56,357 nt of DNA from Candidatus Nomurabacteria bacterium GW2011_GWA2_40_9 (GCA_000993955.1 LBZW01000006.1:1-56357), one strand, 5' to 3'. Positions 13,461 through 31,320 are shown, counted from the stretch's first letter. Program-made: numbers and translations. The notes: a model not told the origin generated them from the sequence alone.

Positions 13461-14499
13461 TTATAAAATAGGATCATTTTGATTAAAGTTCTTTTTAGCT
13501 GGTATATTTATCATATTCCAAATATTATTGGCTAAGCAATGAGCTTCCGGACGTTTACATATCATATCATCCAACGATAATAATTTTCCTTTAGGAATAT
13601 ACCGTTTAGCATACACGCCCTTGCGTACCATTTTTTTATTTTTAATTTCAACAGGTGTAGGTTTCTTCTTCCCATTTCCAAGAGCGCGCTCAATAATTCG
13701 AATGGATCGCACCATATCTAGAAATTCTTTAGGCTCTAAAGAAGCCTCATGATCTGGGCCAGGAAGATTATTATCTAATGTAAGATGTTTTTCAATAACC
13801 CTAGCTCCTAGCTGGATATTCTGATACACAATGAAGTAGCACAACCTTCTCCTCTAATATTTTTCTGACTTTAGATTTTGAATATATTTTCTTCAATTGC
13901 TTTAAGGTAGGAATCTTTTTTGCCTTCAAATATCCAAAGGCAATAATTTTCAAAGCTCTCTTAATTTCTTTAAGCGTACTCATTCCTGTGGATAAAAGCA
14001 TAGGCTTTTGAGTTCTGGCCGCACATAACAAAAGATGATCGTGCGTTAACTCACCAGATGCCACTTTAATAAGAGGCATCTTAAATTTTTGGACCAAATA
14101 ACTTAAACTTTTGATATCAAAAGGGGTAGATAAAAATAAAATATTTCTCTTGTTACAATAGTTCACTATTTTCTCATGCATAGAAGCAGTCAGTTCTAAT
14201 CGCTTTAACATCTCATATTGAGTTAATGAGGATTCTTTTTTTCTCTGATAAAGTACTTTAGGCGCCTCTGGAACCACCAGATCGTCTGTATAAAAAGATT
14301 GAAATTTAATAGCATCCGCACCTGCTGTTTTTGCAGCATCAATAAGTTTAAACGCCATACTTAATGAACCATTATGGTTCACTCCTGCCTCAGCGATAAT
14401 AAATACTTTGTGTCTCAGAGTTTTTTCTATATAAGGCTGCATAAAAGTTGTATCTAGCTTAAAATCAATTAAACTTCTAGCATTAAAAAATGCTCTCAA
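13461..14499 (-). pseudogene. NeuB/LegI/PseI-type nonulosonic acid synthase, disrupted by an internal deletion plus frame change
   Basis: The N-terminal ORF (13801..14499) has IIAEAGVNHNGS, DAIKFQ and HCVSEYPA. The C-terminal ORF (13461..13844) starts at LGARVIEKHLTLD..GPDHEASLEP and includes the SAF domain. The ~40 residues normally between YPA and LGA, including the SDHT metal-binding motif, are absent, and the two halves are in different frames. Confidence 0.75.
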
Positions 14500-14510
14500 C
14501 TAATCCGAAT

Positions 14511-14540
14511 TTGACTGTTGCTATCTACGACAAATATAGT
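14511..14540 (+). promoter_or_regulatory. Possible sigma70-like promoter (TTGACT, 18 nt, TATAGT) for the phosphoramidate operon
   Basis: Hexamers read directly at 14511-14516 and 14535-14540, in the 96-bp divergent spacer upstream of the ATG at 14596. Confidence 0.3.
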
Positions 14541-14595
14541 AAAAATTTGAGAAAGGTCAACTAACATAACTATATTTATGAGATAAAAATTACCT

Positions 14596-15399
14596 ATGCA
14601 GGCCACATACCGAAATAAGAATATCAATGAATATTGGCATGACCGGTGGGATCAGATCCCTATTGATTCGGTAATGAAAAATGAAAACATCTACCCACTG
14701 AAGTACGCAAACATGACCATTCAATCCCAGCAGGGAAGAATTTTAGAACTGGGCTGTGGACCTGGACGATTGCTGAGGTATTATAAAAATCGCGGATATA
14801 ATATTGTGGGAGTAGACTTTGTAGAAGCAATCATTGACAGATTAAAAAAAACAGACCCTGAATTACAGGTAGAAGCTGGAAATGCACAACGTCTTCATTT
14901 TAATGATAAATCTTTTCGTTATGTCTTGGCCTTTGGTATATATCACAATTTATTAGAAGATAGTTTAAAACATGCCATACAAGAAACCTTTCGAATTCTC
15001 GAACCTGGAGGAAAAGTATGTGCTTCTTTTCGAGCCGATAATTTCCAAAAAAAAATAATGGATCGGCTTTCAAAAAAACAAACCACTCATCAGCATGAAA
15101 ACAACACAATAAAAATATTTCATAAATTAAATCTTACTCGGCCTGAATGTATAACACTCTTTAAAGAAGCTGGATTTGAAGTGGAAAATATTTTCCCAGT
15201 AGAAAACATGTCTTTTCTTTATAAATTTTCTTGTTTTCGATCGAAATCTCAAAAATTATTTGATGAACATATCGCCAGAGAAGAAGGATATACACTGTCC
15301 TTTTTAGGTCAGACGATCCAGAAGTTTTTAATGAAACTTTTCCCTAATACATTTTGCAATGTCTATGTGTTAATTGCTAAAAAGAAAGAGATCTCATGA
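14596..15399 (+). CDS. Class I SAM-dependent methyltransferase (positional equivalent of C. jejuni Cj1419/Cj1420)
   Basis: Motif I ILELGCGPGRLL and post-I acidic residue VGVDF. ATGA overlap with the downstream kinase-like gene. Confidence 0.7.
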   Translation: MQATYRNKNINEYWHDRWDQIPIDSVMKNENIYPLKYANMTIQSQQGRILELGCGPGRLLRYYKNRGYNIVGVDFVEAIIDRLKKTDPELQVEAGNAQRLHFNDKSFRYVLAFGIYHNLLEDSLKHAIQETFRILEPGGKVCASFRADNFQKKIMDRLSKKQTTHQHENNTIKIFHKLNLTRPECITLFKEAGFEVENIFPVENMSFLYKFSCFRSKSQKLFDEHIAREEGYTLSFLGQTIQKFLMKLFPNTFCNVYVLIAKKKEIS

Positions 15400-18300
15400 A
15401 TCATTCTTTTCAGGAAGATCAACCAAATAAGATAATCCCATTAAAGGCCATTATCTTAGGTGCAAATCGAGGCATTCGTCGTTTAGACAGTACAAAAAGT
15501 TACCCTCATGCTCTTGGAAAAGGTATCTTTGGAAAATCCGTTTTAGATTGGCAATTATCTTCATTCAAGGCTTGTGGAATTAAAGACATTGTCTTTGTGG
15601 GAGGATATCATTTAGAAAAAATAATCGCAAAATATCCAGGCTTAAACTATTATTTCAATCCTAAGTGGGATTCTTCTGGCTCACTTTTTTCTCTCTTTTG
15701 TGCTCGGGAGGAGTTAACAGAGCCTTGCCTGATCATTTATTCTGACGTTGTTTTTCGACTGAATGTCCTTCAACAATTTATAGCCTGTTCCCAAAATAAT
15801 AAGATTATAATAGGCATCGATCGATCCCCTGATACCGACCTAAGAGAAATGTACAAATCCGAACATATCGAAAGCGTCCAACTGTCACATGAAAATTTAG
15901 TCAAAATAGGCCCACAGATGAATTCCCTTGGAAAAGAAGATGGATTATTCACCGGACTTTGTTTTCTCCCACAACCTATTGTCTCTCAATTAAAAGAAAA
16001 ATTTACCTCCCCCCAATGGATTAACTCACCCCATATTAAAAAATTAAATTTTTCAGATATGTTACAAGAATTACTCAAAGAAGGAAAAAACTTCCAGACA
16101 TATAATATCTCTCAAGACTGGGCTAAGATTCAAAATCCCTTTAGCTTAGCAAGATTTATTTTTGGAACGAAAGCTCAAACCTTGGAAAGATTACGTCAGG
16201 TTATCAAAGGGGCTACCATTCTGGATCAGATTCGCTTTAGTGTGGAGGATTGGACCCACCAGCCAGAAAACATTTTAAATAAAATACAAAAAAAGCTTTC
16301 CTCCAATCAAGTAATTATTCGAAGCAGCGCCTCAAGCGAAGACACATGGGAGTCTTCGAATGCAGGACTTTTTTATAGTGAAAAAACCGTAGACATCAAC
16401 AATAGAGATTTACTACACCAAGGGATTGAACGTGTCATTTCGAGTTTTCAGGCTGCTACGGGCGAACACAACTTAGACCAAGTTTTTGTTCAACCCTATA
16501 TTTCTAATTTAAAAATGTCTGGTGTTATATTCACTAGAGAGCTTGAAAGTGGAGCCCCTTATATCATCATTAATTACTCTTCACATCCTGATAAAACAGA
16601 TGTCATCACTTCTGGATGGAGTGACAATGTTCAAACATTTATTGTATATAAATATACGGACTTTAAAGGTACAGATCCAAATATTATTCAATTACTAAAA
16701 TTAGTTAAAGAATTAGAACAATCCACTAATCTTGATTCCCTTGATATTGAATTTGCTATTGATCAACATGATGACTGTTTTTTATTTCAAGCCAGACCTT
16801 TAGTTTTGCCCTTAATTCGAAAAAAATTTAATGATAAAGATTTTGTTTTAGAAAAAAATTCAATAAAAACATTTATTAATAATCTCATGCAACGTCGTCC
16901 TTATTTATTTGGAGAAAAAACAATTCTCGGGAACATGCCTGATTGGAATCCTGCAGAAATGATTGGCACCGCTCCGAGACCTTTGGCCTTAACGCTGTAT
17001 CAATATCTTATTACAGATAAAGTATGGGGGGAAAGCCGCCAATGTCTGGGATATAAAGATACATACCCAGAACCCCTAATGATCTCATTAGCAGGAAAAC
17101 CTTACATAGATATCCGAACGAGTTTGAACTCTTTTCTCCCAAAGGAACTTTCTCTTGAAGTTTCCGAAAGATTAATTAATTATTATTTAGAACGCTTACA
17201 ACGGTATCCCAATTTTTTTGATAAACTTGAATTTGAAGTCGCCATTACTTGCTTGAGTTTTGATTTTGATAAGCATGCAAGAAATCTTACAGAATCCGGA
17301 TTTCAAAAATCTTCCATTGATGAAATTAAAACATCTGTCTTAAAGTTAACCAACAACATTTTAAATGAAACCTCGATAAACTTAGATCATCAATTACAGC
17401 AACTAGAGATCCTCACCAAAAGAAGAGAGAATATTTTATCTCTCAAAAATATTAGTGCCTCAGAAATACTCAAGGGCATCCATAACCTTTTAGATGATTG
17501 CATACGATATGGAACATTGCCCTTTTCTAACTTAGCCAGGTGTGCCTTCATTTCGACCGCATTTCTAAAATCGCTTCATAGCATCAAAATCTTATCACAA
17601 GCTGACTATGATCTTTTTTTACAATCCATTCCCACCATAGCTTCCGAGATATCTGAAGACATGACACGTATGGTTCATGGAAGCCTATCCATGAAAGATT
17701 TCTTAAATCGTTATGGTCATTTGAGACCTGGGACCTATGACATCCTTTCACCAAGGTATGATGAATCTCCTGAAATTTATTTTCCAAATATTATCCAAAC
17801 CAACTCTCTTCAAGAAAAACGAAACCCCATAAAAACAGAAAGAGATGCAAAGGAAATAATTTTGGAAAAACGCCCTGCACTTAATGCTTTGCTCAAACAA
17901 CATGGAATAACCTGCTCATCTGAACAATTAGTGTATTTTATGGTAAAAAGTATCCAAGCTAGAGAATATGCTAAGTTTGAGTTTACAAAGAATATCAGTG
18001 TCGTCTTACAGAAATTAAGCCAATTTGGAGAAATAAATAATATGTCCATAGATGATATGTCATTTACTTCTATATATTATTTACTTTCACTTTCAACCAG
18101 TAATCCTCCAAGTGATATAAAAAGAGATCTTAAGATGCATGCAAGACGGCATATGAAACAATATGCCCTTACCCAATCAATACAATTGCCATCACTCATT
18201 TATTCATCTGATGATTTAGATTATTTTTACCACAAGGAAATGCAGCCAAATTTTATAACATCAAAGAAAGTCACCGCAGACCTCTTAAAGTTAGATAAAC

Positions 18301-18560
18301 TGACTCACGAAAAATTGGATCTTACAGACAAGATTATATGTATTGAAAATGCTGATCCTGGTTATGACTGGATTTTTGGATATAAGATCGCTGGTCTTGT
18401 GACTAAGTATGGAGGCATTGCATCACACATGTCCATTAGAGCAGCAGAATTTGGCTTACCTGCGGCCATTGGTTGTGGAGATGTCATTTTCCAAAAAATA
18501 TTGCATTCCACAAAAATAGAGTTAAATTGTGCTACTCGGCAAATTCATTTTGTGAAATAA
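15396..18560 (+). CDS. Fusion: N-terminal nucleotidyltransferase domain plus PEP-utilising/PPDK-like ATP-dependent kinase (Cj1418-like L-glutamine kinase candidate)
   Basis: Residues ~10-250 form an NTP-transferase fold (AIILGANRGIRR...YSDVVF). The ATP-grasp/PPDK N-domain motif VIIRSSASSEDTWESSNAGLF follows. The C-terminal swivel phosphohistidine motif is LVTKYGGIASHMSIRAAEFGLPAAIGCG. Confidence 0.65.
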   Translation: MNHSFQEDQPNKIIPLKAIILGANRGIRRLDSTKSYPHALGKGIFGKSVLDWQLSSFKACGIKDIVFVGGYHLEKIIAKYPGLNYYFNPKWDSSGSLFSLFCAREELTEPCLIIYSDVVFRLNVLQQFIACSQNNKIIIGIDRSPDTDLREMYKSEHIESVQLSHENLVKIGPQMNSLGKEDGLFTGLCFLPQPIVSQLKEKFTSPQWINSPHIKKLNFSDMLQELLKEGKNFQTYNISQDWAKIQNPFSLARFIFGTKAQTLERLRQVIKGATILDQIRFSVEDWTHQPENILNKIQKKLSSNQVIIRSSASSEDTWESSNAGLFYSEKTVDINNRDLLHQGIERVISSFQAATGEHNLDQVFVQPYISNLKMSGVIFTRELESGAPYIIINYSSHPDKTDVITSGWSDNVQTFIVYKYTDFKGTDPNIIQLLKLVKELEQSTNLDSLDIEFAIDQHDDCFLFQARPLVLPLIRKKFNDKDFVLEKNSIKTFINNLMQRRPYLFGEKTILGNMPDWNPAEMIGTAPRPLALTLYQYLITDKVWGESRQCLGYKDTYPEPLMISLAGKPYIDIRTSLNSFLPKELSLEVSERLINYYLERLQRYPNFFDKLEFEVAITCLSFDFDKHARNLTESGFQKSSIDEIKTSVLKLTNNILNETSINLDHQLQQLEILTKRRENILSLKNISASEILKGIHNLLDDCIRYGTLPFSNLARCAFISTAFLKSLHSIKILSQADYDLFLQSIPTIASEISEDMTRMVHGSLSMKDFLNRYGHLRPGTYDILSPRYDESPEIYFPNIIQTNSLQEKRNPIKTERDAKEIILEKRPALNALLKQHGITCSSEQLVYFMVKSIQAREYAKFEFTKNISVVLQKLSQFGEINNMSIDDMSFTSIYYLLSLSTSNPPSDIKRDLKMHARRHMKQYALTQSIQLPSLIYSSDDLDYFYHKEMQPNFITSKKVTADLLKLDKLTHEKLDLTDKIICIENADPGYDWIFGYKIAGLVTKYGGIASHMSIRAAEFGLPAAIGCGDVIFQKILHSTKIELNCATRQIHFVK

Positions 18561-18562
18561 AT

Positions 18563-19222
18563 ATGAAAATAGGCATTTCCATGCGAACAGCTCCCATTCT
18601 ACAAACTCGTGAAAATCACGATATGATTAGTCATGATTGGCTAAATTTTTTACACTCCTTGCAATTTGAATGGGTACTTATTCCAAATCTTAAAAAACAA
18701 CCTCTTAAAGATAACATACAAGCATTAATATTGAGTAATGGGAATGACATCGGAATGTTTAATAATCGAGATAAAAGTTTTTTATCTGATGTTTCTTCTG
18801 AAAGAGATGAAACAGAGCTTCAGCTTCTTCAGCATGCCATTAAAAATAAACTACCTGTTCTTGGAGTGTGCCGTGGTATGCAATTTATTAATGGGTATTT
18901 TAATGGAGAACTTAAAAAAATCCATTCGCCTATGGAACATGCTGGATGTCACCATCAAATTGATATTATTGACAGCCGGTTTACCCCCGCGTTAGGCAAA
19001 GAACTCACAGTTAATTCTTTTCACAAATTTGGTGTCTTCACAGATCATATTTCAAATAATTTAAGAACATTTGCAGTCCATCGGCAACATAAAATCTGTG
19101 AAGGCCTTTATCATCCGGAGTTGCCTATAGTAGGAATTCAATGGCATCCAGAACGTCAAAGTTCAGATGGAGAAAAGGTTAAATTATTCATTAATAACTT
19201 TCTACGAGGTCATTTTTTTTGA
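18563..19222 (+). CDS. Class I glutamine amidotransferase / peptidase C26 gamma-glutamyl hydrolase (Cj1417-like)
   Basis: Nucleophile elbow LPVLGVCRGMQFING and His motif IVGIQWHPE. ATG at 18563 lies 2 nt after the upstream stop; the track ORF from 18473 is an out-of-context extension. Confidence 0.7.
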   Translation: MKIGISMRTAPILQTRENHDMISHDWLNFLHSLQFEWVLIPNLKKQPLKDNIQALILSNGNDIGMFNNRDKSFLSDVSSERDETELQLLQHAIKNKLPVLGVCRGMQFINGYFNGELKKIHSPMEHAGCHHQIDIIDSRFTPALGKELTVNSFHKFGVFTDHISNNLRTFAVHRQHKICEGLYHPELPIVGIQWHPERQSSDGEKVKLFINNFLRGHFF

Positions 19223-20022
19223 AACAACCCATAACACCTAAACTTATTATTTTAGCAGCCGGTGAAGGCAGCAGGTTAAAACCTTACACTCTTGATAAGC
19301 CCAAGTGTCTTGTTCCATTACATGGCAAAAGTATTCTCAGTTGGCAAGTTAGTTTGGCTCATCAATTTAATATTTATGACATTATTGTAGTTAAAGGTTA
19401 TAAACACGAAAAAATCCAGGAAAACCACATTCGAAGCTATATTAATACAGCTTATGATCACACAAATATGGTTGAAACACTCTGGTGCGCCCAAGAAGAG
19501 TTTAAAGAAGATATTATTATCTCGTATGGAGATATCTTATATAATGCAGATGTACTCTCAGCCTTAATACAGTCGCCTCATGATATTTCCGTTGTTATTG
19601 ACAAAGACTGGTTGCAGTACTGGAAGCAACGTTTTATAAATCCCTTAGAGGACGCTGAAAGTTTACATATAGATAGTTCAGGTAAAATACTAGAGATTGG
19701 TCAAAAAGTTAGCGATTACACAAAAATTCAAGGTCAATTTATTGGATTAATGCGATTTAAAAATAATGGCATTAAGGCTCTTAAAAATTTTTATATGCTA
19801 GCTAAAGAAGAGACAGGTTGTGGAAAAAAAATTTTTAGAACCCCTCGTCCTTTTCACAAGATTTTTATGACTGATTTTTTACAAGGCATGATTGATTTTG
19901 GATATCCTATACTTGAAGTCCCCATAAAAAGGAATTGGTTAGAAATTGATTCACCTTCAGACTATGATTTAGCTAAACAAATAACAATATCAGAAACTTC
20001 ACAGTTAAAATTTTTAAGCTGA
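19219..20022 (+). CDS. Nucleotidyltransferase (Cj1416-like CTP:phosphoglutamine cytidylyltransferase candidate; LicC-like fold)
   Basis: LIILAAGEGSRLKPYTLDKPKCLVPL motif. TTG start in a TTGA overlap with the upstream stop. Confidence 0.65.
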   Translation: MKQPITPKLIILAAGEGSRLKPYTLDKPKCLVPLHGKSILSWQVSLAHQFNIYDIIVVKGYKHEKIQENHIRSYINTAYDHTNMVETLWCAQEEFKEDIIISYGDILYNADVLSALIQSPHDISVVIDKDWLQYWKQRFINPLEDAESLHIDSSGKILEIGQKVSDYTKIQGQFIGLMRFKNNGIKALKNFYMLAKEETGCGKKIFRTPRPFHKIFMTDFLQGMIDFGYPILEVPIKRNWLEIDSPSDYDLAKQITISETSQLKFLS

Positions 20023-20051
20023 AGGGCTTCTGATCTCTAAGGTAGGCACCT

Positions 20052-20567
20052 ATGGTTTTATGGTTAATCGGAATGTCAGGCGCTGGAAAGACAGTAATTG
20101 GACGTGAAGTGTATGTTCAATTAAAAAAAACATATAAAAATATCATTTTTTTCGATGGGGATACTATTCGAGAACTCATGGGAAATGATTTAGGTTATAA
20201 CATTTCGGATAGGAAAAAAAATGCAAATAGAATATGTCGGCTTTGTCATTTCTTTGACGCACAAGGTATCCATGTCATCTGTGGTATCTTGTCAATTTTT
20301 CATGAATCTCAAAAATGGAATAAAGAAAACATTAAAGATTATTACGAGGTATATTTAAAAACTTCCCTTAAAATATTACAAATGAGAGATTCAAAAAATC
20401 TTTATAGGCAATCACAAAAAGGTGAGACACACCATGTTGTAGGCATGGACATTAAATTTCCCGAACCTTTAAACCCAGATCTTATCGTACACAATGACGG
20501 CGCAGACTCTGTAGAAGATATAGCTCAAACCATTATATCTAAACTCATTGAAAGAAAACTTATTTAG
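20052..20567 (+). CDS. APS-kinase-fold nucleotide 3'-kinase (CysC/Cj1415-like; cytidine diphosphoramidate kinase candidate)
   Basis: P-loop LIGMSGAGKT, FFDGDTIR, DRKKNANR and the LYRQSQKGE..VVGMD..FPEP layout of adenylylsulfate kinases. Confidence 0.7.
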   Translation: MVLWLIGMSGAGKTVIGREVYVQLKKTYKNIIFFDGDTIRELMGNDLGYNISDRKKNANRICRLCHFFDAQGIHVICGILSIFHESQKWNKENIKDYYEVYLKTSLKILQMRDSKNLYRQSQKGETHHVVGMDIKFPEPLNPDLIVHNDGADSVEDIAQTIISKLIERKLI

Positions 20568-20572
20568 ATAAA

Positions 20573-21268
20573 ATGAATTACGAATACCACCATAAAAATA
20601 CTTTAGAAAACCCCTGCAATTACATGTACACACCATTTTATGGTGATTCATTTCTAAAAAGCTATTTTAGAAATCGGGAAAACTCTATAGCCATTCTTCA
20701 AGATAGAACGCATCTAAAAACTATCCAAATAGTAGATATTATAAAGAAAGAAAATATAGAGGCCCTCTTCTATCTTCTTAATGGTAACACGAAGGATAAA
20801 ACTAGAAAAACCCTCTCTCAATTGTTAAAGAATAGTCAAGAATGGCTTAAGATCCTAGAAAAAAAAGAGCGTGTAAATACACTTGAAATATTCGAGAATT
20901 TATTGATAGCCATTCTTCTGGGAAATAAAAAATCGCATAAAAATATTTGTTTTTATTTAAATATTTTCTTAAAAAGATATGAACTCTCTAAGCATCTTTT
21001 TACACATTATAATGGCTCTACTTTTAAAAAAAGTGGGGGAGACTATACGTTATTATCAAGCTATGTTTACTTTTCGCTCCTATTGAGCTTGGCTTACTTT
21101 AGATTAAAGAACATTAAGTATTTAAATACTACCCTAAAAATAAATGATATGCTTTGTTCAAATTTAAACAACCTCCAGAACCATTTTGATAGATCCGCAT
21201 TTTTTATATCATTAATATTGGAAATACACCTTGTAAAATTACTTATGGTCAAAAAGGGGCTGTCATGA
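20573..21268 (+). CDS. Hypothetical protein (231 aa), probably alpha-helical, no family recognised
   Basis: ORF tightly packed in the operon: 5-nt spacer upstream, ATGA overlap downstream. Confidence 0.5.
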   Translation: MNYEYHHKNTLENPCNYMYTPFYGDSFLKSYFRNRENSIAILQDRTHLKTIQIVDIIKKENIEALFYLLNGNTKDKTRKTLSQLLKNSQEWLKILEKKERVNTLEIFENLLIAILLGNKKSHKNICFYLNIFLKRYELSKHLFTHYNGSTFKKSGGDYTLLSSYVYFSLLLSLAYFRLKNIKYLNTTLKINDMLCSNLNNLQNHFDRSAFFISLILEIHLVKLLMVKKGLS

Positions 21269-22014
21269 TTCTTCAAGATATCGGCATGGTACTTGTCTCA
21301 TCATCCCGTTCAAAAGCTTACTTACAAATACTCTTGAAGCATGATATTAAGCCTTCACACGTAATTATGATTGACCACCAAAGGGAAACTCTTTTGCCAG
21401 GGCAGAGAATTTCTGATGTATCACAATCACAAGAAATAAAAGATTCTTCAGTCCCCAAAAAGAAGTCTCAAGACTATTTTAACCCTGAGGAACAACTTAT
21501 AGAAACTTTGACCAAACACCACATCTCACATGAAATAATTTATAGCCAAGACGTGAACAATCCACACGTTATAAGCGCTTTAAAAAATAGGCGGGAAAAA
21601 TATTTCATCTATTCAGGATTCGGAGGCGGAATTTTGAAATCAGATATTTTGAATATTGGCAAAGATTTTATCCATATCCATTCGGGATTAATTCCATCCT
21701 ACCGTGGGAGCACAACGATTTATTATAGCATATTGAATGAAAATAAATGCACTGCAACAGCTTTTTTTCTAAACGAACACCTTGACAGTGGAGACATTAT
21801 TAAAATAAAAGAATTCCCTAAACCAAAAAATGGAGAAACAATCGACTTTATTTATGACGCACACATTCGATCTCTCTTGCTTTTAGAGGTACTACAAGAA
21901 TATATAAAAATCGGCGCCTTTAAAAGAAGGGCCCAAAGCGCTCAACAGGGAGAAACTTATTTTATAATTCATCCTGTTTTAAAACACTTGGCCATTTTAA
22001 CATGCAAAAAATAA
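21265..22014 (+). CDS. Formyltransferase-fold protein (Formyl_trans_N-like)
   Basis: IHIHSGLIPSYRGST resembles the HxSLLPxxRG motif of formyltransferases, followed by LDSGDII (substrate-loop Asp). Confidence 0.5.
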   Translation: MILQDIGMVLVSSSRSKAYLQILLKHDIKPSHVIMIDHQRETLLPGQRISDVSQSQEIKDSSVPKKKSQDYFNPEEQLIETLTKHHISHEIIYSQDVNNPHVISALKNRREKYFIYSGFGGGILKSDILNIGKDFIHIHSGLIPSYRGSTTIYYSILNENKCTATAFFLNEHLDSGDIIKIKEFPKPKNGETIDFIYDAHIRSLLLLEVLQEYIKIGAFKRRAQSAQQGETYFIIHPVLKHLAILTCKK

Positions 22015-23033
22015 AATTTATATTTCAATCTACACCCTTTCGATCAGGAGCTACCTTACTGTCAAGAATGTTAAATGCTCATCCGAAAATAGGCTCTCTA
22101 AATGACGATGTAAAATTTTTCCGTTTTTGCTATAATCGATACCTGCCTCTAAATAAAAAAAATGTGCACCGAATGTTAGAAGAGGAGGCGTATCGTCTTT
22201 TACACCGATTTAATATAAAACTTGATGTCAATAAATGCTTTGAAGTCATTAAAAAATATCCTCTGAAACATGACATTATTTATAAAACTATTTTATTACA
22301 CCTTTTTAAGAATCGCCCTAAAGACTTTATCCTAGATAAAGAAACTCTCGCTTGGACTAAAATCCCATTATTTCTTGAATGGTTTCCTAATTCCAAGGCT
22401 TTATTGATTATTCGAGATTTAAGAGACGTTGTTGTCTCATTTAAGAAGTTAACTTTTGCACCTGGGAATGATTACCTCATTGCTTTATTTAATGTAATAG
22501 ATGCTATGGACACTTTTTTAGAACTTCAGCATAAATTTCCTCACCGATTTTATGGCGTTCGTTATGAAATGCTAAAATCTAATCCAAAATCAGAAATGAA
22601 AAAAATATCCCACTTTTTAGGAATTGATTATAGTGCTAATATGTTAAATGAAAAAAAATGGGTGGAGTTTAATGGGGAAAAGTGGATAAATAAAAAACAT
22701 TCTACCTTTTACACCAGTGGTGACTATCAAAATCCAGTGGGTCGCTGGCGACGATTAATCACAGAAGAAGAATTATTCCTATGTGAGTGGATAGGAAAAA
22801 AACAAATGCAAAACTTTGGAATTAAATTTGAAGGATCAAAAATTTCTCAAAAAACATTTAACAGGGCTATACAAATGCTAACCAGCAGTAATGTATTACG
22901 TGAATGCTTTCAACACTGGTGTGAGACTGGCAAAGGGATGGAACGTTATCCATTGGATGCTACGAACCCAAAATATTGGGATAGAGACGTTTTATACAGC
23001 CCCCAAGCCTTTGGGCTGGAGTCATCCAAATAA
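22002..23033 (+). CDS. Sulfotransferase-fold protein
   Basis: 5'-phosphosulfate-binding-loop-like STPFRSGATLLSRML and 3'-phosphate-binding motif LLIIRDLRDVVVSFKK. Confidence 0.7.
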   Translation: MQKIKFIFQSTPFRSGATLLSRMLNAHPKIGSLNDDVKFFRFCYNRYLPLNKKNVHRMLEEEAYRLLHRFNIKLDVNKCFEVIKKYPLKHDIIYKTILLHLFKNRPKDFILDKETLAWTKIPLFLEWFPNSKALLIIRDLRDVVVSFKKLTFAPGNDYLIALFNVIDAMDTFLELQHKFPHRFYGVRYEMLKSNPKSEMKKISHFLGIDYSANMLNEKKWVEFNGEKWINKKHSTFYTSGDYQNPVGRWRRLITEEELFLCEWIGKKQMQNFGIKFEGSKISQKTFNRAIQMLTSSNVLRECFQHWCETGKGMERYPLDATNPKYWDRDVLYSPQAFGLESSK

Positions 23034-23050
23034 AATGGCATATACAATAC

Positions 23051-23686
23051 ATGCATAAGAGAAAAAAAATAGTCATCTTAGGAGGCGGCAGCCATGCGGA
23101 AGTTTTGCTCAGCATACTACAGTTACATACAATAACCATCCTGGGATATACAGATCATATCAAAAAGAGGAATCTGCCCATAAAATACTTAGGGAATGAT
23201 CTCTCAGTTGGCTACCATTCACCAAAAGATATTCAACTTGTTAATGGTTTAGGATCAACGGACTTACCTCTTCAACGCCAATTCATATATGAAAAATTTA
23301 AAAAACTTGGCTATACATTTGCTTCCGTAATTCATCCTAGTGCTATTTTAGCAAAAGATGTAAAACTCTCTGAAGGCGTTCAGCTCATGACCGCTGTTGT
23401 TATTAATGTTAATAGTCAGATAGGAGAAAACTCAATTATCAATACGGGAGCTTTAATAGATCATCATTGTTGTATTGGAAAACATTCTCATATTGCACCG
23501 GGTGTTACTCTTTCTGGTGGTATACACATTGGAAACTGTTGTCTCATTGGTGCTGGCACAACTATTATACAAAATATTTCTATTGGGAACCAAGTAGTCA
23601 TTGGAGCAGGTTCGGTCGTAATTAAAAATGTTTTATCTTGTATCAGGGCAGCTGGCGTACCTGCAAGAACTATTTCAGCGGCATGA
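23051..23686 (+). CDS. NeuD/PglD/LegH-family hexapeptide-repeat sugar N/O-acetyltransferase
   Basis: N-terminal Rossmann-like IVILGGGSHAEVL. C-terminal left-handed beta-helix repeats (IGENSIINTGALIDHHCCIGKHSHIAPGVTLSGGIHIGN...). Confidence 0.8.
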   Translation: MHKRKKIVILGGGSHAEVLLSILQLHTITILGYTDHIKKRNLPIKYLGNDLSVGYHSPKDIQLVNGLGSTDLPLQRQFIYEKFKKLGYTFASVIHPSAILAKDVKLSEGVQLMTAVVINVNSQIGENSIINTGALIDHHCCIGKHSHIAPGVTLSGGIHIGNCCLIGAGTTIIQNISIGNQVVIGAGSVVIKNVLSCIRAAGVPARTISAA

Positions 23687-25509
23687 AGCATCAAAAAATC
23701 AGTGTTGTATTCTCCCCTGACATCATTTCCTTATTATGGCTGCGCCTAACAACCTCAGGTCCTATTTATTTTACTGAAACAGGCGCTCCCCTTTCTACTA
23801 GCCTTTTAAAAAAAACATCCAAATTACTTTATTTTTTAAATATTCATGCCTTTAAATACCACATCGGCACGGGTAGTCAGGGACAAGGATACCTTAATTC
23901 AATTTTTTGTACGGCAAAAGATTTAACTGAAGAATTCACAAATACTTGCAACGAAATAAACCTTATTAATAATTTTAGTGAAAAATTTTTCGATAAAAAC
24001 TTCCTGCTCTTTATAAAAAAATATATCTACTTGCAAATCTGGCATACCATTCGAAATTATCATGGAATCTTAAATAATTATGCTTTAAACTCCATCATCT
24101 ATATTCCACCTAAGTCTTGTGAGTCTTTTGTCTTTGAAAAGTATACATCTGGAGTCAATCATAATTTGACCATTAAAACATTTTCGAAACGATTTAATAA
24201 TATATTACTTATTCTTATTTATTTCTGTTTTTTAATAAAGCGTATGACTATAAGTGGTTTTAAATTTTCAAATTTTAAAAAAGCCCAATATAAAATCATG
24301 ATCGAATGTGATCGATGGACAAATAAAGATCGAACTTTTGACTTGCTGGAATGGTGGGACGATACATCTATTAAAAAAGAAGAAATATTAATATTTTCTC
24401 CCGCTAATCATTCATCTGAAAACTTACCTTTTTACTATGAGCTGAAAAATAAAGGATTTTCTTGTACAGAGTTAAAAGCAAAGCGGAAAATCCCCATATC
24501 TCATCTGAGGAAAATTATATCCCTTCTTGTCTTCTTTCCTTTAAAAAATATACCTCCCTTAGTAAGAAGCAGCCATTGTAATATTTTTTTATTTTTTCTC
24601 ACCCAATTTTTTTATTGGTCAATTTTTTTTTATTACCACAAAGTTAAAATCTTGATTTTATCAAATCCAGTCGATAACGATTATCAAACCATCATTTGCA
24701 ATTTATTTAATTGTTCAACCATTGCCTTTCACACAAGCTATTTTGGAACATTTGATCAACTTAACGCAAGAAATTACCATGTAAATCATTTATTATTATG
24801 GGGAGAAGCTCAAATAAATCCTTCCATTATTGGTACCTCTGTAGACCATACTTATTTTACGGGCTGTCATGCATTGACGAATGTATGTAGAGAAAAAAAA
24901 ATATTGACAAAGCTAAACATTCCAGGAATTAAGACTGGTAAAAAAAATATACTTTTTTTTGATAATACAGTCATTAATGATGCCCCAACAACAGAAGAGG
25001 GATATTTTCAATTTTTAGAAATGCTGATCCAATGCAAAAAAATTCTAAATACAAATGTTATATATAGACCTAAGATTTTAGATCCCTTTGATGAATCGCA
25101 TTTTAGTAACACAAGAAAACTTACCAGAATAAAAAAAACATTAGAGGATCTTCAAATACCCATATTAACCAGAGATAAATATGATTTAAGCTTTATATTC
25201 TCTGCAGCTGATATTGTTGTATCAAACATGACTGCCACACCTAGTATGATTGCCCTCATGCTCGATATTCCTTCATTTTTTTATTTCAAAAACATCAAAC
25301 AAACTCCGGATCCTATTATGAGAAATTATTTAAACGAACTCATCTTTGAAGACCCAGAAAGGCTTATTAAAAAGATTAAAGATGTAAGTGAAGGAGCCGC
25401 ATATGCTCATTTAAGTAACGAAGAAAAGAAAAAGATAAATTATCATCTTGATACCAATGGATTAATAAGATTGCGATCGATAATTACGGAGATTACGAAT
25501 CATTCTTAA
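23683..25509 (+). CDS. Orphan ~608-aa protein with a GT-B/capsule-synthesis-like C-terminal Rossmann domain (candidate glycan-modifying transferase)
   Basis: ATG at 23683 in an ATGA overlap with the acetyltransferase stop. The C-terminal pattern KKNILFFDN...IYRPK...AADIVVSNMTATPSMIALMLDIP resembles GT-B / CDP-glycerol-phosphotransferase / KpsS-like folds. Confidence 0.45.
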   Translation: MKHQKISVVFSPDIISLLWLRLTTSGPIYFTETGAPLSTSLLKKTSKLLYFLNIHAFKYHIGTGSQGQGYLNSIFCTAKDLTEEFTNTCNEINLINNFSEKFFDKNFLLFIKKYIYLQIWHTIRNYHGILNNYALNSIIYIPPKSCESFVFEKYTSGVNHNLTIKTFSKRFNNILLILIYFCFLIKRMTISGFKFSNFKKAQYKIMIECDRWTNKDRTFDLLEWWDDTSIKKEEILIFSPANHSSENLPFYYELKNKGFSCTELKAKRKIPISHLRKIISLLVFFPLKNIPPLVRSSHCNIFLFFLTQFFYWSIFFYYHKVKILILSNPVDNDYQTIICNLFNCSTIAFHTSYFGTFDQLNARNYHVNHLLLWGEAQINPSIIGTSVDHTYFTGCHALTNVCREKKILTKLNIPGIKTGKKNILFFDNTVINDAPTTEEGYFQFLEMLIQCKKILNTNVIYRPKILDPFDESHFSNTRKLTRIKKTLEDLQIPILTRDKYDLSFIFSAADIVVSNMTATPSMIALMLDIPSFFYFKNIKQTPDPIMRNYLNELIFEDPERLIKKIKDVSEGAAYAHLSNEEKKKINYHLDTNGLIRLRSIITEITNHS

Positions 25510-29060: not shown

Positions 29061-31320
29061 TTGGATAAAATTAAGATGTTTAAAAAAGAGCTTATAGCTA
29101 TTTTCTTTATCATTATTATTGTTCTTATTGGTTATCATGAAATATTTTTAGGGGCAAATTTTTTTACAAATGCAGATCCCCTCGGATCTTCTCATTTGAC
29201 ATATCGTACACCCATCAATGGATGGAGACCAGATATTCGATTTGGCGGTTCTTTGTTCTTGGGAGACCCTGGGGAATCACATCCATGGTCCTTAACTTCT
29301 TTATTTGAAAAAATTCCTCTCTCTCAGAAAGATTCCTACAGTTTTTTAGTCATCCTATTGGGTATTTGTACTGCACTCTCATTATATTTCTTCTTGAGAC
29401 AAGTTGTTCCAGAATTAGGAAGATATGTGGCTATTCTTGCCCCTCTCAGTGTTTTTTGCCAAGAACAATTTAATAGTCAGCATGCACGCTTACGCTGTAC
29501 TCTTTCTGTCGGCGTCCCTTTGTTTTTAATGCTTCTGTATTCTTTCTATAAGAAACCGAGATTATTACATTACTTTTTTGCAAGTCTTCTCTTTTGGTTT
29601 GTTGCTTTCATGGGTACTCTATGGGGCCTTACTCAAATGCTAACAATAGGTGTCTTATTCTCAATACTATACACCCTTTACTTTAAAGAGGATCTCCGTC
29701 TAATGGTCATTAAGTTTTTCTCAATTTACATACTAGGTAATTTGACCATGATTTGTTTAGGGATGTGGGTGTTTTATTCATTTTTCTGGGAATATATCCA
29801 TAACCTGGACCTTCCAGGAATCCCCTGGCGTCCTTTGGGACATTTTTTTAATGCATTAATGATAATGCCACTTATTACAGTATTTTTTATTTTCCATCGA
29901 TCTAAAAATTTTTGGGAATACGCATTAAAATGGCTCGTGATCCTTATTGTTGCACAATATGGGCTTGTAAAACTATTCCCATTTTATGGAGATATTCTTG
30001 CTTTTATATCTCATAAAAGCTCAACAATTATTAATTTGAGTATATATGAAGGAGGTTATTTTCCTTTGCAAATTGGATTAATAGCTATTTTTCTTTCAAA
30101 AGCGAGTAAAAAGAACTCCACCATTAAAAAATTATGGGCTAGCAGAATCCAAACTGGGATAGCCTATTTATTAATAACATCTTATTTTTGTCTTCTTTTA
30201 TTCGCACTTATTTCTATCTTGTTACCAGAACTTATCCCTACGGTTATCTCTTATGTAGTCCAAACCTTTGGTCCACAACATCTGGGCAATTATTCAAACG
30301 AATTTTTAATATATGTTGTATCTTTTATCATAAGACGCTTACAACACGCCATGAGCTGGCATGCCATTTTATTTTATGTATCAAGCATTCTCTTGGTAGC
30401 ATTATTCATCAAAAATAAATGGTTTTTTAATAATCCCCATAAACAAAAAGTATTAATTCCTTCTCTTTTGCTTTTAAATGGAATTATGTTTTCATGGACA
30501 GTCTATCCATTAAATTATGAAAAGTTCCAGAAAAGAAACAATCGAAAAATTTAAAGAAAACTGGGTAAACCTAGAGGGTCAAGGAGACAGAGAATATCTA
30601 ATTGGCGAATTCATCCCCCCCAGCCTGAATCTTTCCACAGCATTTCATTTTATGCCTACTGATGTTGGAAACTTTATTTTTAAAATTTTTAATGTCGATA
30701 AAACAACAAAAATAAGACAGCCAAGAGAGCTCAGTCAAGGCCCCTTTGTATCCTCTGAATTATTAGATATGGGGGCCGTTAATCATTACTACTCACGCGT
30801 TCCAATTCCAGATCTACCTAAAAATTTATCCCTTATCTACAAAGGAAAACAACTTTACATATATAAAAACCTTTCTGCATGGCCATACTTCTACTTAGCA
30901 AAAAATTTAAAAGTCAAAACAAATTCAGAATATCCGCATGTTCAACGAAATACTGCATACATAGAAAAAAAAGAGGATTTCTTTAGCTTGTCTAAAGAAG
31001 CTGGAAAAGCCCGTCTAAAAATGAAAGAATTTTTATACGGGCGAATGGTATTTGATTTTGAGAGCAAACAAAAAGAATTTTTGGTCATCGCTGATGCTTG
31101 GCACCCTCTTTGGAAGACAAAAGCAAATGGGGATTATCTCCCAATAATAAAAACAAATGAGATTTTTAAAGGAGTCATATTACCCGCAGGAAAATATGAC
31201 ATAACTGTTTTTTTTGATTATTCCCCTTATCTTGTGGGAATTTACTTAAGTGTTATTTTTTGGATATTATTCTCTGTAGGAATGTTTTTGGCTTGGAAAT
31301 ATCGATCTGAAGATTTCTGA
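29061..31320 (+). pseudogene. YfhO-like GT-C membrane glycosyltransferase split into two overlapping ORFs (29061..30554 and 30517..31320)
   Basis: The first ORF is a polytopic membrane domain. The second ends with the characteristic YfhO C-terminus (ADAWHPLWKTKANGDYLPIIKTNEIFKGVILPAGKYDITVFFDYSPYLVGIYLSVIFW plus a final TM). Together they are ~764 aa, the usual size of one YfhO protein. The frames switch within 30517-30554. Confidence 0.5.
30615..30621 (+). repeat. C7 homopolymer inside the YfhO-like C-terminal ORF
   Basis: Counted directly (ttc atc ccc ccc agc). Confidence 0.9.

What the first reader, a model, noticed from the sequence alone, without database searches (positions are those of the whole stretch)
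20052..23033. Sulfotransferase-fold protein co-transcribed just downstream of the 3'-kinase: candidate transferase for the PAPS-like phosphoramidate donor, or a sulfation branch without its sulfurylase
3'-phospho-cytidine-5'-diphosphoramidate is a structural analogue of PAPS (3'-phosphate plus an activated 5' group). The ORF at 22002..23033 keeps both PAPS-binding signatures of sulfotransferases: a 5'-PSB-like loop TPFRSGATLL and the 3'-PB motif IIRDLRDVVVS. It lies in the same overlapping gene chain, three genes after the kinase. No ATP sulfurylase (CysDN/Sat) is visible anywhere in the 56 kb. Two readings are possible. In the first, the sulfotransferase fold has been recruited to transfer phosphoramidate, which would be a new enzyme class. 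In the second, the CysC-like kinase is dual-use and the glycan is sulfated.
Basis: inference. Interest (0 to 1): 0.7.

Follow-up and report, generated by a model that had tools for sequence, protein, structure and literature searches.

The report
Sulfotransferase-fold gene inside a phosphoramidate-donor operon
A gene with a sulfotransferase fold sits in an operon that makes a cytidine analogue of the sulfate donor PAPS, and the same pairing recurs in many unrelated microbes, so it is a strong but unproven candidate for the enzyme that attaches (methyl)phosphoramidate to a surface sugar.

Summary
ORF 22002..23033 is a well-supported sulfotransferase-fold protein: Pfam Sulfotransfer_3 at 1.4e-21, an AlphaFold model with pLDDT 92.5, and TPST and CurM-ST as the nearest solved structures. 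Both nucleotide-phosphate motifs are conserved across 52 homologues. It is the third gene after an APS-kinase-family gene, in a ten-gene chain whose first five genes match Campylobacter cj1419/20 and cj1418-1415, the pathway to 3'-phospho-CDP-amidate. No ATP sulfurylase is present in the 56 kb.

New evidence comes from 80 metagenomic loci fetched with the glutamine kinase. They hold 23 sulfotransferase-fold ORFs in 19 sequence clusters. Nineteen are the immediate neighbour of the cassette and 22 are on its strand. They co-occur with the Cj1415-type kinase (14/25 versus 7/55 loci, p = 2e-4). Kinases in these loci form a clade apart from canonical APS kinases. Close relatives of this ORF sit next to cassette genes in four different arrangements.

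This favours phosphoramidate transfer (about 0.55). The main counter-evidence is that 57-58%-identical homologues pair with, or are fused to, a different kinase type where no glutamine kinase is nearby, and I found no donor-switch signature. PAPS-dependent sulfation stays a live rival (about 0.3). Homology to the genetic MeOPN transferases Cj1421/Cj1422 could not be tested.

The parts
14596..15399 (+). SAM-dependent methyltransferase, first gene of the chain. It occupies the position of cj1419/cj1420 and is the candidate O-methylase of the phosphoramidate.
   Evidence: Pfam Methyltransf_25 and Methyltransf_11. The best promoter-like sites lie at 14511-14576. A 53%-identical gene holds the same position in L002.
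15396..18560 (+). Fusion of an N-terminal MobA-like nucleotidyltransferase domain with an L-glutamine-kinase-like domain (Cj1418 type, PEP-utilising).
   Evidence: NF004508/PRK05849 at 893 bits (cut-off 501); Pfam PPDK_N, PEP-utilizers and NTP_transf_3. More than 3,900 homologues, several labelled 'glutamine kinase' by JGI.
18581..19222 (+). Class-I glutamine amidotransferase / peptidase C26, in the position of the gamma-glutamyl-CDP-amidate hydrolase (Cj1417 type).
   Evidence: Pfam Peptidase_C26 at 4e-24. NF045546 at 101 bits, below its cut-off of 250. It scores 194 bits on an HMM built from GATases of glutamine-kinase loci.
19219..20022 (+). MobA-like nucleotidyltransferase, in the position of the CTP:phosphoglutamine cytidylyltransferase (Cj1416 type).
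   Evidence: Pfam NTP_transf_3. It scores 306 bits on an HMM of the cassette NTases from 67 metagenomic loci.
20052..20567 (+). APS-kinase-family kinase of the cassette-associated (Cj1415-type) clade. Predicted 3'-kinase of CDP-amidate.
   Evidence: Pfam APS_kinase at 1.6e-32. Best NCBIfam hit is NF004041/PRK05541, 179 bits against a cut-off of 127. It clusters with the kinases of glutamine-kinase loci and away from canonical APS kinases.
20573..21268 (+). 231-aa protein of unknown function. It travels with the kinase and the formyltransferase-like gene.
   Evidence: No Pfam or NCBIfam hit. The trio kinase / this family / formyltransferase-like recurs in L002, L057 and L094.
21265..22014 (+). 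Formyltransferase-N-domain-like protein of 249 aa.
   Evidence: Pfam Formyl_trans_N at 4.4e-8. Relatives are present in 12 of the 80 glutamine-kinase loci.
22002..23033 (+). The finding: a sulfotransferase-fold protein, and the only one in the window. Candidate (methyl)phosphoramidate transferase; alternatively a PAPS sulfotransferase.
   Evidence: Comparative context.
23051..23686 (+). NeuD/PglD-type hexapeptide sugar N-acetyltransferase.
   Evidence: TIGR03570 at 201 bits (cut-off 161). The same family lies next to the ST in L003, L108, L109 and L110.
23683..25509 (+). 608-aa GT-B-fold protein (glycosyltransferase-like or TagF-like), last gene of the chain.
   Evidence: No Pfam hit and about 46 remote homologues, all unnamed. 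AF2 model pLDDT 87.6; Foldseek hits are GT-B enzymes, including TagF at TM 0.54. It is not found in the 80 glutamine-kinase loci.

Best explanation
The ORF is a cytoplasmic sulfotransferase-fold transferase whose donor is 3'-phospho-cytidine-5'-diphosphoramidate rather than PAPS.

Inferred pathway:
- The four upstream enzymes make the donor: glutamine kinase, cytidylyltransferase, gamma-glutamyl-CDP-amidate hydrolase and a Cj1415-type 3'-kinase.
- The ST-fold enzyme binds the donor's 3'-phosphate with R138/S146 and its 5'-phosphate with R14-S15-G16.
- It transfers the terminal phosphoramidate, which is isosteric with and carries the same charge as a sulfuryl group, in-line to a sugar hydroxyl. 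This releases 3',5'-cytidine bisphosphate.
- The methyltransferase at 14596 supplies the O-methyl group, giving a MeOPN-like decoration.
- The acceptor is probably a nonulosonic-acid-type sugar or its precursor, because this protein family is nearly always embedded among NeuB, PglD-like, aminotransferase and CMP-synthetase genes.

Shown: the fold, the motifs, the operon structure, and the statistical association of ST-fold genes with kinase-containing cassettes. Inferred: the donor, the chemistry, the acceptor and the order of methylation.
For: 1. Pathway identity of the upstream genes. The gene order MT-GlnK-GATase-NTase-kinase matches what I recall of the order of cj1419/20 and cj1418-1415 in C. 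jejuni.

2. The same cassette, from MT through ST, is conserved in a groundwater MAG whose proteins are only 33-69% identical to the window's.

3. In 80 loci fetched with the glutamine kinase alone, there are 23 ST-fold ORFs in 21 loci.
- They form 19 clusters at 35% identity.
- 13 of the 20 tested with Pfam score above the gathering cut-off.
- 19 of 23 are the immediate neighbour of the cassette. That is 12.4% of immediate neighbours, against 0.7% of more distant ORFs.
- 22 of 23 are on the cassette strand.
- They co-occur with the kinase: 14/25 versus 7/55 loci, Fisher p = 1.8e-4.

4. Most loci with TagF-like or CDP-alcohol-phosphotransferase genes (11 of 13) lack the kinase. This fits a picture of 3'-phosphorylated donor with ST fold versus plain CDP donor with CDP-utilising folds, although the association is not significant (p = 0.21).

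5. CysQ-like Inositol_P genes occur inside kinase-plus-ST cassettes (L027, L032, L062) and beside family members in L011, L025 and L012. This is as expected if a 3',5'-bisphosphate nucleotide product must be recycled.

6. Members of this ORF's own family sit next to cassette genes in four different arrangements: the window and L002, L039 (ST directly upstream of the glutamine kinase), L012 (a Cj1416-type NTase fused to Inositol_P, then the ST), and L011/L025/L026 (a cassette-clade kinase, then the ST).

7. None of 15 family loci carries a sulfurylase. A distant ST at 21% identity (L019) shows the classical Sat-APS kinase-ST layout.

8. It is the only ST-fold ORF in the window.

9. MeOPN transfer has not yet been reconstituted in vitro, so the role is open (PMC12409886).
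Against: 1. The closest relatives outside the window/L002 pair (57-58% identity: L001, L003, L023; also L107, L108, L110) are adjacent to, or in L001 fused with, a different and divergent kinase type. That type scores near the TIGR00455 apsK cut-off, and there is no glutamine kinase or C26 GATase within 10 kb.

2. Only two conservative columns (A117/S and V186/I) separate STs paired with the two kinase types. So there is no sign that the donor differs between them. If those loci sulfate, this one probably does too.

3. Every solved structural neighbour is a PAPS enzyme.

4. Base recognition (cytosine versus adenine) could not be examined, because no model coordinates were available.

5. Some kinase-containing cassettes (L053, L057, L066, L070, L090) show no ST within the fetched DNA, and four related loci have an ST but no kinase.

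6. Co-localisation is not proof of a shared substrate.

7. The rest of the genome could not be searched for cysDN, sat or cysC.
Confidence: 0.55

Rival explanations
1. It is an ordinary PAPS-dependent carbohydrate O-sulfotransferase acting on the nonulosonic-acid glycan. PAPS would come from a housekeeping sulfurylase plus either a cysC elsewhere or promiscuous APS phosphorylation by the operon's kinase. On this reading, its position in the phosphoramidate operon reflects only that both are decorations of the same glycan.
For: Fold, motifs and all structural neighbours are those of PAPS enzymes. Homologues 57-58% identical pair with, or are fused to, kinases that score at about the apsK cut-off and have no glutamine-kinase cassette nearby. 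Kinase plus ST is the minimal add-on needed for sulfation in an organism that already makes APS. No residue signature separates these homologues from the window protein. A distant relative (L019) sits in a classical Sat-APS kinase-ST cassette.
Against: No sulfurylase occurs in the window or in any of 15 family loci. The window kinase, and those next to family members in L011, L025 and L026, belong to the cassette-associated clade and not to canonical APS kinases. The 'type B' kinases are themselves divergent: they score lower on both the cassette-kinase HMM and apsK than real APS kinases do. In L003, L108 and L110 they are preceded by a MobA-like NTase fused to a methyltransferase, which sulfation does not need. 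The strong, multi-lineage adjacency of ST-fold genes to glutamine-kinase cassettes would be left unexplained.
Confidence: 0.3
2. The phosphoramidate is transferred by another product of the operon, and the ST-fold protein does something else or is inactive. Candidates are the 608-aa GT-B/TagF-like protein acting on CDP-amidate, or the pair formed by the 231-aa protein and the formyltransferase-like protein.
For: The 608-aa protein has a GT-B fold with TagF among its best matches. Its size matches the 592- and 603-aa Campylobacter MeOPN transferases (PMC13317227). TagF-like genes follow the cassette in kinase-less loci. The kinase / 231-aa / formyltransferase-like trio recurs, in L057 with no ST in view.
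Against: The 608-aa family is absent from all 80 glutamine-kinase loci and is found only in the window/L002 lineage. GT-B proteins are expected as ordinary glycosyltransferases in such an island. TagF-type enzymes use CDP donors with a free 3'-OH, which would make the kinase pointless. The ST retains its nucleotide-phosphate-binding residues, invariant or at least 90% conserved, so it is not decayed.
Confidence: 0.1

Closest known systems
Campylobacter jejuni MeOPN transferases Cj1421/Cj1422 (CJJ81176_1421/_1435) with the cj1415-cj1420 donor pathway
   Same: The upstream pathway genes are the same and, as I recall the C. jejuni locus, in the same order: methyltransferase, glutamine kinase, GATase, NTase, 3'-kinase. 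The proposed job is the same: moving phosphoramidate from 3'-phospho-CDP-amidate to a capsule or LPS sugar. The role in Campylobacter is defined genetically only, and transfer has not been reconstituted in vitro (PMC11800397, PMC12409886, PMC9561416).
   Different: The Campylobacter proteins are 592-603 aa, against 343 aa here. Homology could not be tested because no Cj1421/22 sequence was reachable. Metagenomic cassettes do carry 561-582-aa ST-fold proteins in tandem (L080) that resemble the Campylobacter layout, but that is a lead and not a test. The organism is an uncultured groundwater bacterium, and the acceptor is probably a nonulosonic-acid glycan rather than heptose or GalfNAc.
Tyrosylprotein sulfotransferases TPST1/2 and the CurM/OLS polyketide sulfotransferase domains (PAPS-dependent, Sulfotransfer_3-type)
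   Same: Best sequence and structure matches: PDB phmmer E = 6e-6, Foldseek E about 1e-10, TM 0.51-0.64. They share the PRSG-type 5'-PSB loop and the RDxR...S 3'-PB motif.
   Different: Only 17-21% identity. There is an extra C-terminal helical region of about 100 aa. The genomic context has no sulfate activation and does have a cytidine-phosphoramidate pathway. The predicted donor differs.
Bacterial glycan sulfation cassettes (ATP sulfurylase + APS kinase + sulfotransferase; e.g. the putative C. jejuni HS:19 cysDN-cysC-ST cluster)
   Same: A kinase of the APS-kinase family immediately precedes an ST-fold gene inside a surface-glycan locus. In some relatives a CysQ-like phosphatase is adjacent.
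   Different: The sulfurylase and sulfate transporter that define such cassettes (PMC8743553; L019) are missing here and in all 15 family loci. The kinase belongs to a different clade.

Membership tests
Sulfotransferase fold superfamily (Pfam PF13469 / PF00685) | Profile match above the curated cut-off | tested here: met
   PF13469 at 78.2 bits (cut-off 27); PF00685 at 47.4 bits (cut-off 22).
Sulfotransferase fold superfamily (Pfam PF13469 / PF00685) | 5'-phosphosulfate-binding loop and 3'-phosphate-binding motif | tested here: met
   R138, D139, R141 and D142 are invariant, and R14, S15, G16 and S146 are at least 90% conserved in 52 homologues. They align with the TPST motifs.
Sulfotransferase fold superfamily (Pfam PF13469 / PF00685) | Three-dimensional fold | tested here: met
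   AF2 pLDDT 92.5. All 50 listed Foldseek PDB hits are sulfotransferase-family structures.
PAPS-dependent sulfotransferase (enzymatic activity) | Uses PAPS as donor and transfers a sulfuryl group | not testable with these tools
   Needs an enzyme assay or glycan analysis.
PAPS-dependent sulfotransferase (enzymatic activity) | Sulfate-activation genes (Sat or CysDN) in the locus or genome | tested here: not met
   None in the 56-kb window or in 15 family loci. The rest of the genome could not be searched.
Characterised bacterial carbohydrate sulfotransferases (NodH, NoeE, Stf0, RaxST and similar) | Membership in a curated family model | tested here: not met
   No NCBIfam model matched at E <= 0.01. 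The nearest solved bacterial sulfotransferases, Stf9 and Stf1, are at 14% identity.
MeOPN / phosphoramidate transferase (Cj1421/Cj1422 role) | Co-localised and co-oriented with homologues of cj1415-cj1418 and a methyltransferase | tested here: met
   Same overlapping gene chain. Conserved in L002. Family members lie next to cassette genes in L039, L012, L011, L025 and L026.
MeOPN / phosphoramidate transferase (Cj1421/Cj1422 role) | Sequence or structural homology to Cj1421/Cj1422 | not tested
MeOPN / phosphoramidate transferase (Cj1421/Cj1422 role) | Loss of the phosphoramidate decoration on gene deletion, or transfer in vitro | not testable with these tools
   Experimental.
3'-phospho-CDP-amidate donor pathway (upstream genes) | Glutamine kinase, GATase-type hydrolase, cytidylyltransferase and Cj1415-type kinase all present | tested here: met
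   NF004508 at 893 bits. The kinase is above the NF004041 cut-off and lies in the cassette clade. The NTase and GATase score 306 and 194 bits on cassette HMMs. NF045546 scores only 101 bits, below its cut-off of 250, so the hydrolase assignment is by position and family and not by equivalog.

The most novel reading that the evidence does not exclude
Sulfotransferase-fold proteins are the general transferases of a widespread, largely unrecognised glycan decoration system. Together with a Cj1415-type 3'-kinase, and often a CysQ-like phosphatase, they use 3'-phospho-CDP-amidate as a 'PAPS of phosphoramidate'. This system operates across many bacterial and archaeal lineages and not only in Campylobacter. 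The ORF in this window is a compact member acting on nonulosonic-acid glycans. Its sister loci, with an NTase-methyltransferase fusion plus a divergent kinase, may use yet another 3'-phospho-NDP-X donor.
Probability: 0.45. Interest if true: 0.85.

Novelty: new variant of a known kind. Interest (0 to 1): 0.7.

Why it matters
The last step of O-methyl-phosphoramidate biosynthesis, who transfers the group and from which donor, has not been shown biochemically. The pathway has been described as Campylobacter-specific (PMC9561416). Here the glutamine-kinase cassette has thousands of homologues in environmental bacteria and archaea, and its kinase-containing versions carry sulfotransferase-fold neighbours. 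If these enzymes use 3'-phospho-CDP-amidate, a classic fold has a second donor chemistry. Many genes annotated 'sulfotransferase' would then be mis-assigned, and soluble 340-aa enzymes such as this one would be tractable tools for reconstituting phosphoramidate transfer, which is relevant to capsule vaccines and to phage receptors. If it is only a PAPS sulfotransferase, the result would still point to sulfated nonulosonic-acid glycans, which is a smaller novelty.

Tried and rejected
1. I tried to tie the 608-aa ORF to Cj1421/22. The word-based search found only 2 relatives and the exhaustive search 46, all unnamed and none from Campylobacter. The structure shows a generic GT-B fold. It is kept only as a minor rival.

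2. I tried to read Taylor & Raushel 2018 (the Cj1415 paper) and related manuscripts for APS activity and for comments on the transferase. They are not held.

3. Literature searches linking glutamine kinase, MeOPN or Cj1421 with sulfotransferase found nothing relevant. The search was badly posed, because the spelling variants matched each other.

4. I looked for specificity-determining positions between STs paired with the two kinase types. Only two conservative columns emerged.

5. I checked whether ST-fold proteins in kinase-less cassettes have lost the 3'-phosphate-binding Arg. They have not, so the check was uninformative.

6. A PDB search with a long cassette ST (L080) for a solved MeOPN transferase found nothing.

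7. Promoter and terminator scans were at chance level.

8. Docking of PAPS against the cytidine donor was not possible, because model coordinates are not exposed.

Full report
**1. What is there**

The window is a 56-kb surface-polysaccharide island with about 33% GC. It encodes:
- nonulosonic-acid genes (NeuB, NeuC-like epimerase, DegT aminotransferases, CMP-synthetases);
- many methyltransferases and glycosyltransferases;
- an ABC exporter.

Public records name the contig UU24_C0006 of 'Candidatus Nomurabacteria bacterium GW2011_GWA2_40_9', from Rifle groundwater.

On the + strand, ten genes run from 14596 to 25509 with overlapping or nearly abutting ends:
- a methyltransferase;
- a 1054-aa NTase/PEP-utilising fusion;
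- a C26 GATase;
- a MobA-like NTase;
- an APS-kinase-family kinase;
- a 231-aa protein of unknown function;
- a formyltransferase-like protein;
- the sulfotransferase-fold ORF (22002-23033);
- a NeuD/PglD acetyltransferase;
- a 608-aa GT-B protein.

Promoter-like sites precede the first gene, and nothing terminator-like above chance interrupts the chain.

**2.

- The ORF matches Sulfotransfer_3 and Sulfotransfer_1 well above their cut-offs.
- Its motifs align with the 5'-PSB and 3'-PB motifs of TPSTs.
- It has 94 homologues. In an alignment of 52, R138, D139, R141 and D142 are invariant, and R14, S15, G16, S146 and E114 are at least 90% conserved.
- The AF2 model is confident (pLDDT 92.5) and matches only sulfotransferase-family structures.
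- No sulfurylase domain occurs anywhere in the window.
- It is the only ST-fold ORF in the window.

**3. The upstream genes are the phosphoramidate-donor pathway**

- The fusion protein scores 893 bits on NF004508/PRK05849, and JGI annotates several of its homologues as glutamine kinase.
- The GATase hits the gamma-glutamyl-CDP-amidate hydrolase model, but below its cut-off.
- The kinase is above the cut-off of NF004041/PRK05541 rather than apsK.
- From my own knowledge of the C. jejuni locus, the order MT-1418-1417-1416-1415 is the same. The biochemistry of Cj1415-1418 is summarised in PMC11800397.

**4. Context of the ST's own family**

The identical operon is present on four independent groundwater contigs. 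A MAG labelled Deltaproteobacteria has the same cassette from MT through ST, with proteins 33-69% identical.

In other relatives a kinase is almost always immediately upstream, and in P0016/L001 it is fused to the ST. The kinases are of two types.

Type A (window, L002, L011, L025, L026):
- These kinases are above the PRK05541 cut-off.
- In an NJ tree and by HMM score they nest among kinases of glutamine-kinase loci.
- Canonical APS kinases (two PDB entries, plus the L019 kinase that sits next to a Sat gene) fall outside this group.

Type B (L001, L003, L023, L107, L108, L110):
- These kinases are only about 25% identical to the window kinase.
- They score near the apsK cut-off. They score lower than real APS kinases on both the apsK model and the cassette-kinase HMM.
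- In L003, L108 and L110 they are preceded by a MobA-like NTase fused to a methyltransferase.

Further links between the ST family and cassette genes:
- In L012, a Cj1416-type NTase (298 bits, as high as the window's own) is fused to a CysQ-like Inositol_P domain and directly precedes the ST.
- In L011 and L025, the order is Inositol_P, kinase, ST.
- In L039, a family member sits directly upstream of a glutamine kinase-GATase-NTase-kinase run.

None of the 15 family loci has a sulfurylase. A distant archaeal ST at 21% identity (L019) has the textbook Sat-APS kinase-ST order.

**5. The reverse test**

I aligned 25 glutamine-kinase homologues and fetched 80 metagenomic loci with that alignment alone. 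The loci form 64 clusters at 70% identity.

Searching their ORFs with an HMM of the ST family, then with an iterated HMM, gave 23 ST-fold ORFs in 21 loci. Pfam independently confirmed a sulfotransferase domain above the gathering score in 13 of the 20 tested, with sub-threshold hits in 5 more. The ORFs are very diverse, forming 19 clusters at 35% identity.

Position and co-occurrence:
- 19 of 23 are the immediate neighbour of the cassette. That is 12.4% of immediate neighbours, against 4 of 538 (0.7%) of ORFs further away.
- 22 of 23 are on the cassette strand.
- They co-occur with the kinase: 14/25 versus 7/55 loci, odds ratio 8.7, p = 1.8e-4.

Typical layouts:
- ST-kinase-MT-GlnK-GATase-NTase;
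- GlnK-GATase-NTase-kinase-(Inositol_P)-ST;
- in L080, two tandem ST-fold proteins of 582 and 561 aa next to MT-GlnK-GATase-NTase. This recalls the tandem cj1422/cj1421, whose 81-176 homologues are 592 and 603 aa (PMC13317227).

Of the 13 loci with TagF-like (Glyphos_transf) or CDP-alcohol phosphotransferase genes, 11 lack the kinase. This association is not significant, p = 0.21.

Caveats:
- ORF calling in the sandbox was crude.
- The NJ tree has no bootstrap support.
- Many loci are short.
- The 80 loci are those most similar to the window's glutamine kinase.

**6. Interpretation**

The chemistry is plausible. A phosphoramidate monoanion is tetrahedral and singly charged like a sulfuryl group, and the leaving group pCp mirrors PAP. 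An ST active site would mainly need a different base pocket.

The comparative data make ST-fold proteins the best candidates for the transferase that uses the 3'-phosphorylated donor. The window ORF is the only such protein in its operon. I therefore favour phosphoramidate, and with the methyltransferase MeOPN-like, transfer to a nonulosonic-acid-type glycan, at about 0.55.

The main weakness is inside the ORF's own family. Its nearest relatives outside the window/L002 pair work with type B kinases and no glutamine kinase within 10 kb, and I could find no residue signature of a donor change. There are three possibilities:
- those loci sulfate, and so does this one (rival, about 0.3);
- they obtain CDP-amidate from genes elsewhere;
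- they use yet another 3'-phospho-NDP-X donor made by the NTase-methyltransferase fusion.

The GT-B protein, or the pair formed by the 231-aa protein and the formyltransferase-like protein, could be the transferase instead (about 0.1). The kinase / 231-aa / formyltransferase-like trio recurs in L057 and L094 and is unexplained.

**7. Novelty**

I found no paper in the held library that links sulfotransferase folds to MeOPN transfer. Papers from 2025 still describe the decoration step as yet to be elucidated, and a 2022 review calls the glutamine kinase C. jejuni-specific.

The function is known genetically in Campylobacter, and I could not test whether Cj1421/22 share the fold. I therefore rate this a new variant of a known kind, with interest 0.7.

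Noticed in passing
window 13810, 28176, 29798-29802, 30526-30527: Compared with an otherwise identical public contig (L006), the window lacks four stretches of about 86-116 nt. These missing stretches split NeuB into two ORFs (13461-13844 and 13801-14499). They also shorten the Ldh_2 gene from 347 to 308 aa and break an 815-aa ORF into 29061-30554 and 30517-31320. They look like assembly gaps rather than pseudogenes.
   Followed up: yes
whole window; names: The contig is deposited under a CPR bin (Candidatus Nomurabacteria GW2011_GWA2_40_9). Yet it is a large LPS- or capsule-type island with a WecA-like GT4, an ABC exporter and nonulosonic-acid genes. Its closest cassette is in a groundwater 'Deltaproteobacteria' MAG. 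This could be mis-binning or horizontal transfer.
   Followed up: no
window 15396-18560; loci L027-L106: The glutamine-kinase family is very large, with more than 3,900 proteins at E <= 1e-10. It is spread over many lineages, including Haloferax, Clostridium butyricum, Rhodohalobacter, Anaerolineales and Pacearchaeota. It is usually fused to an N-terminal NTase domain. A 2022 review calls the enzyme C. jejuni-specific (PMC9561416).
   Followed up: partly
L042, L047, L054, L083, L085, L086, L099 (TagF-like); L044, L060, L065, L082 (CDP-OH_P_transf): In these glutamine-kinase cassettes, which lack a 3'-kinase, a TagF-like glycerophosphotransferase homologue follows the cassette or a CDP-alcohol phosphotransferase homologue precedes it. 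This suggests a second, kinase-independent route that would use CDP-amidate directly.
   Followed up: partly
window 20052-22014; L002, L057 7502-9310, L094 15863-17717: The kinase, a protein of about 190-230 aa with no known domain, and a formyltransferase-N-like protein of about 240-250 aa form a conserved trio in one kinase subclade. In L057 there is no ST in sight. Formyltransferase-like relatives occur in 12 of the 80 glutamine-kinase loci. Their role is unknown.
   Followed up: partly
L003 3510-4913, L108 3231-4634, L110 5115-6506: A 463-467-aa fusion of a MobA-like NTase domain and a SAM methyltransferase immediately precedes the divergent 'type B' kinase and the ST in three independent loci. 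This hints at a different 3'-phospho-NDP-X donor.
   Followed up: partly
L001 3793-5337 (P0016): A natural fusion protein of 514 aa combines an APS-kinase-family domain with an ST 58% identical to the window ORF. This is a Rosetta-stone link between the kinase and this ST family.
   Followed up: yes
L012 49-1623; L027, L032, L062; L011, L025: CysQ-like Inositol_P phosphatases are part of kinase-plus-ST modules, and in one case are fused to the Cj1416-type NTase. This is consistent with recycling of a 3',5'-bisphosphate nucleotide by-product.
   Followed up: partly
L094 14107-15861; cluster c20 in L047, L061, L083, L085, L086: Sulfatase-family (alkaline-phosphatase superfamily) proteins recur beside glutamine-kinase cassettes, once directly after an ST-fold gene. 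Their function there is unknown.
   Followed up: no
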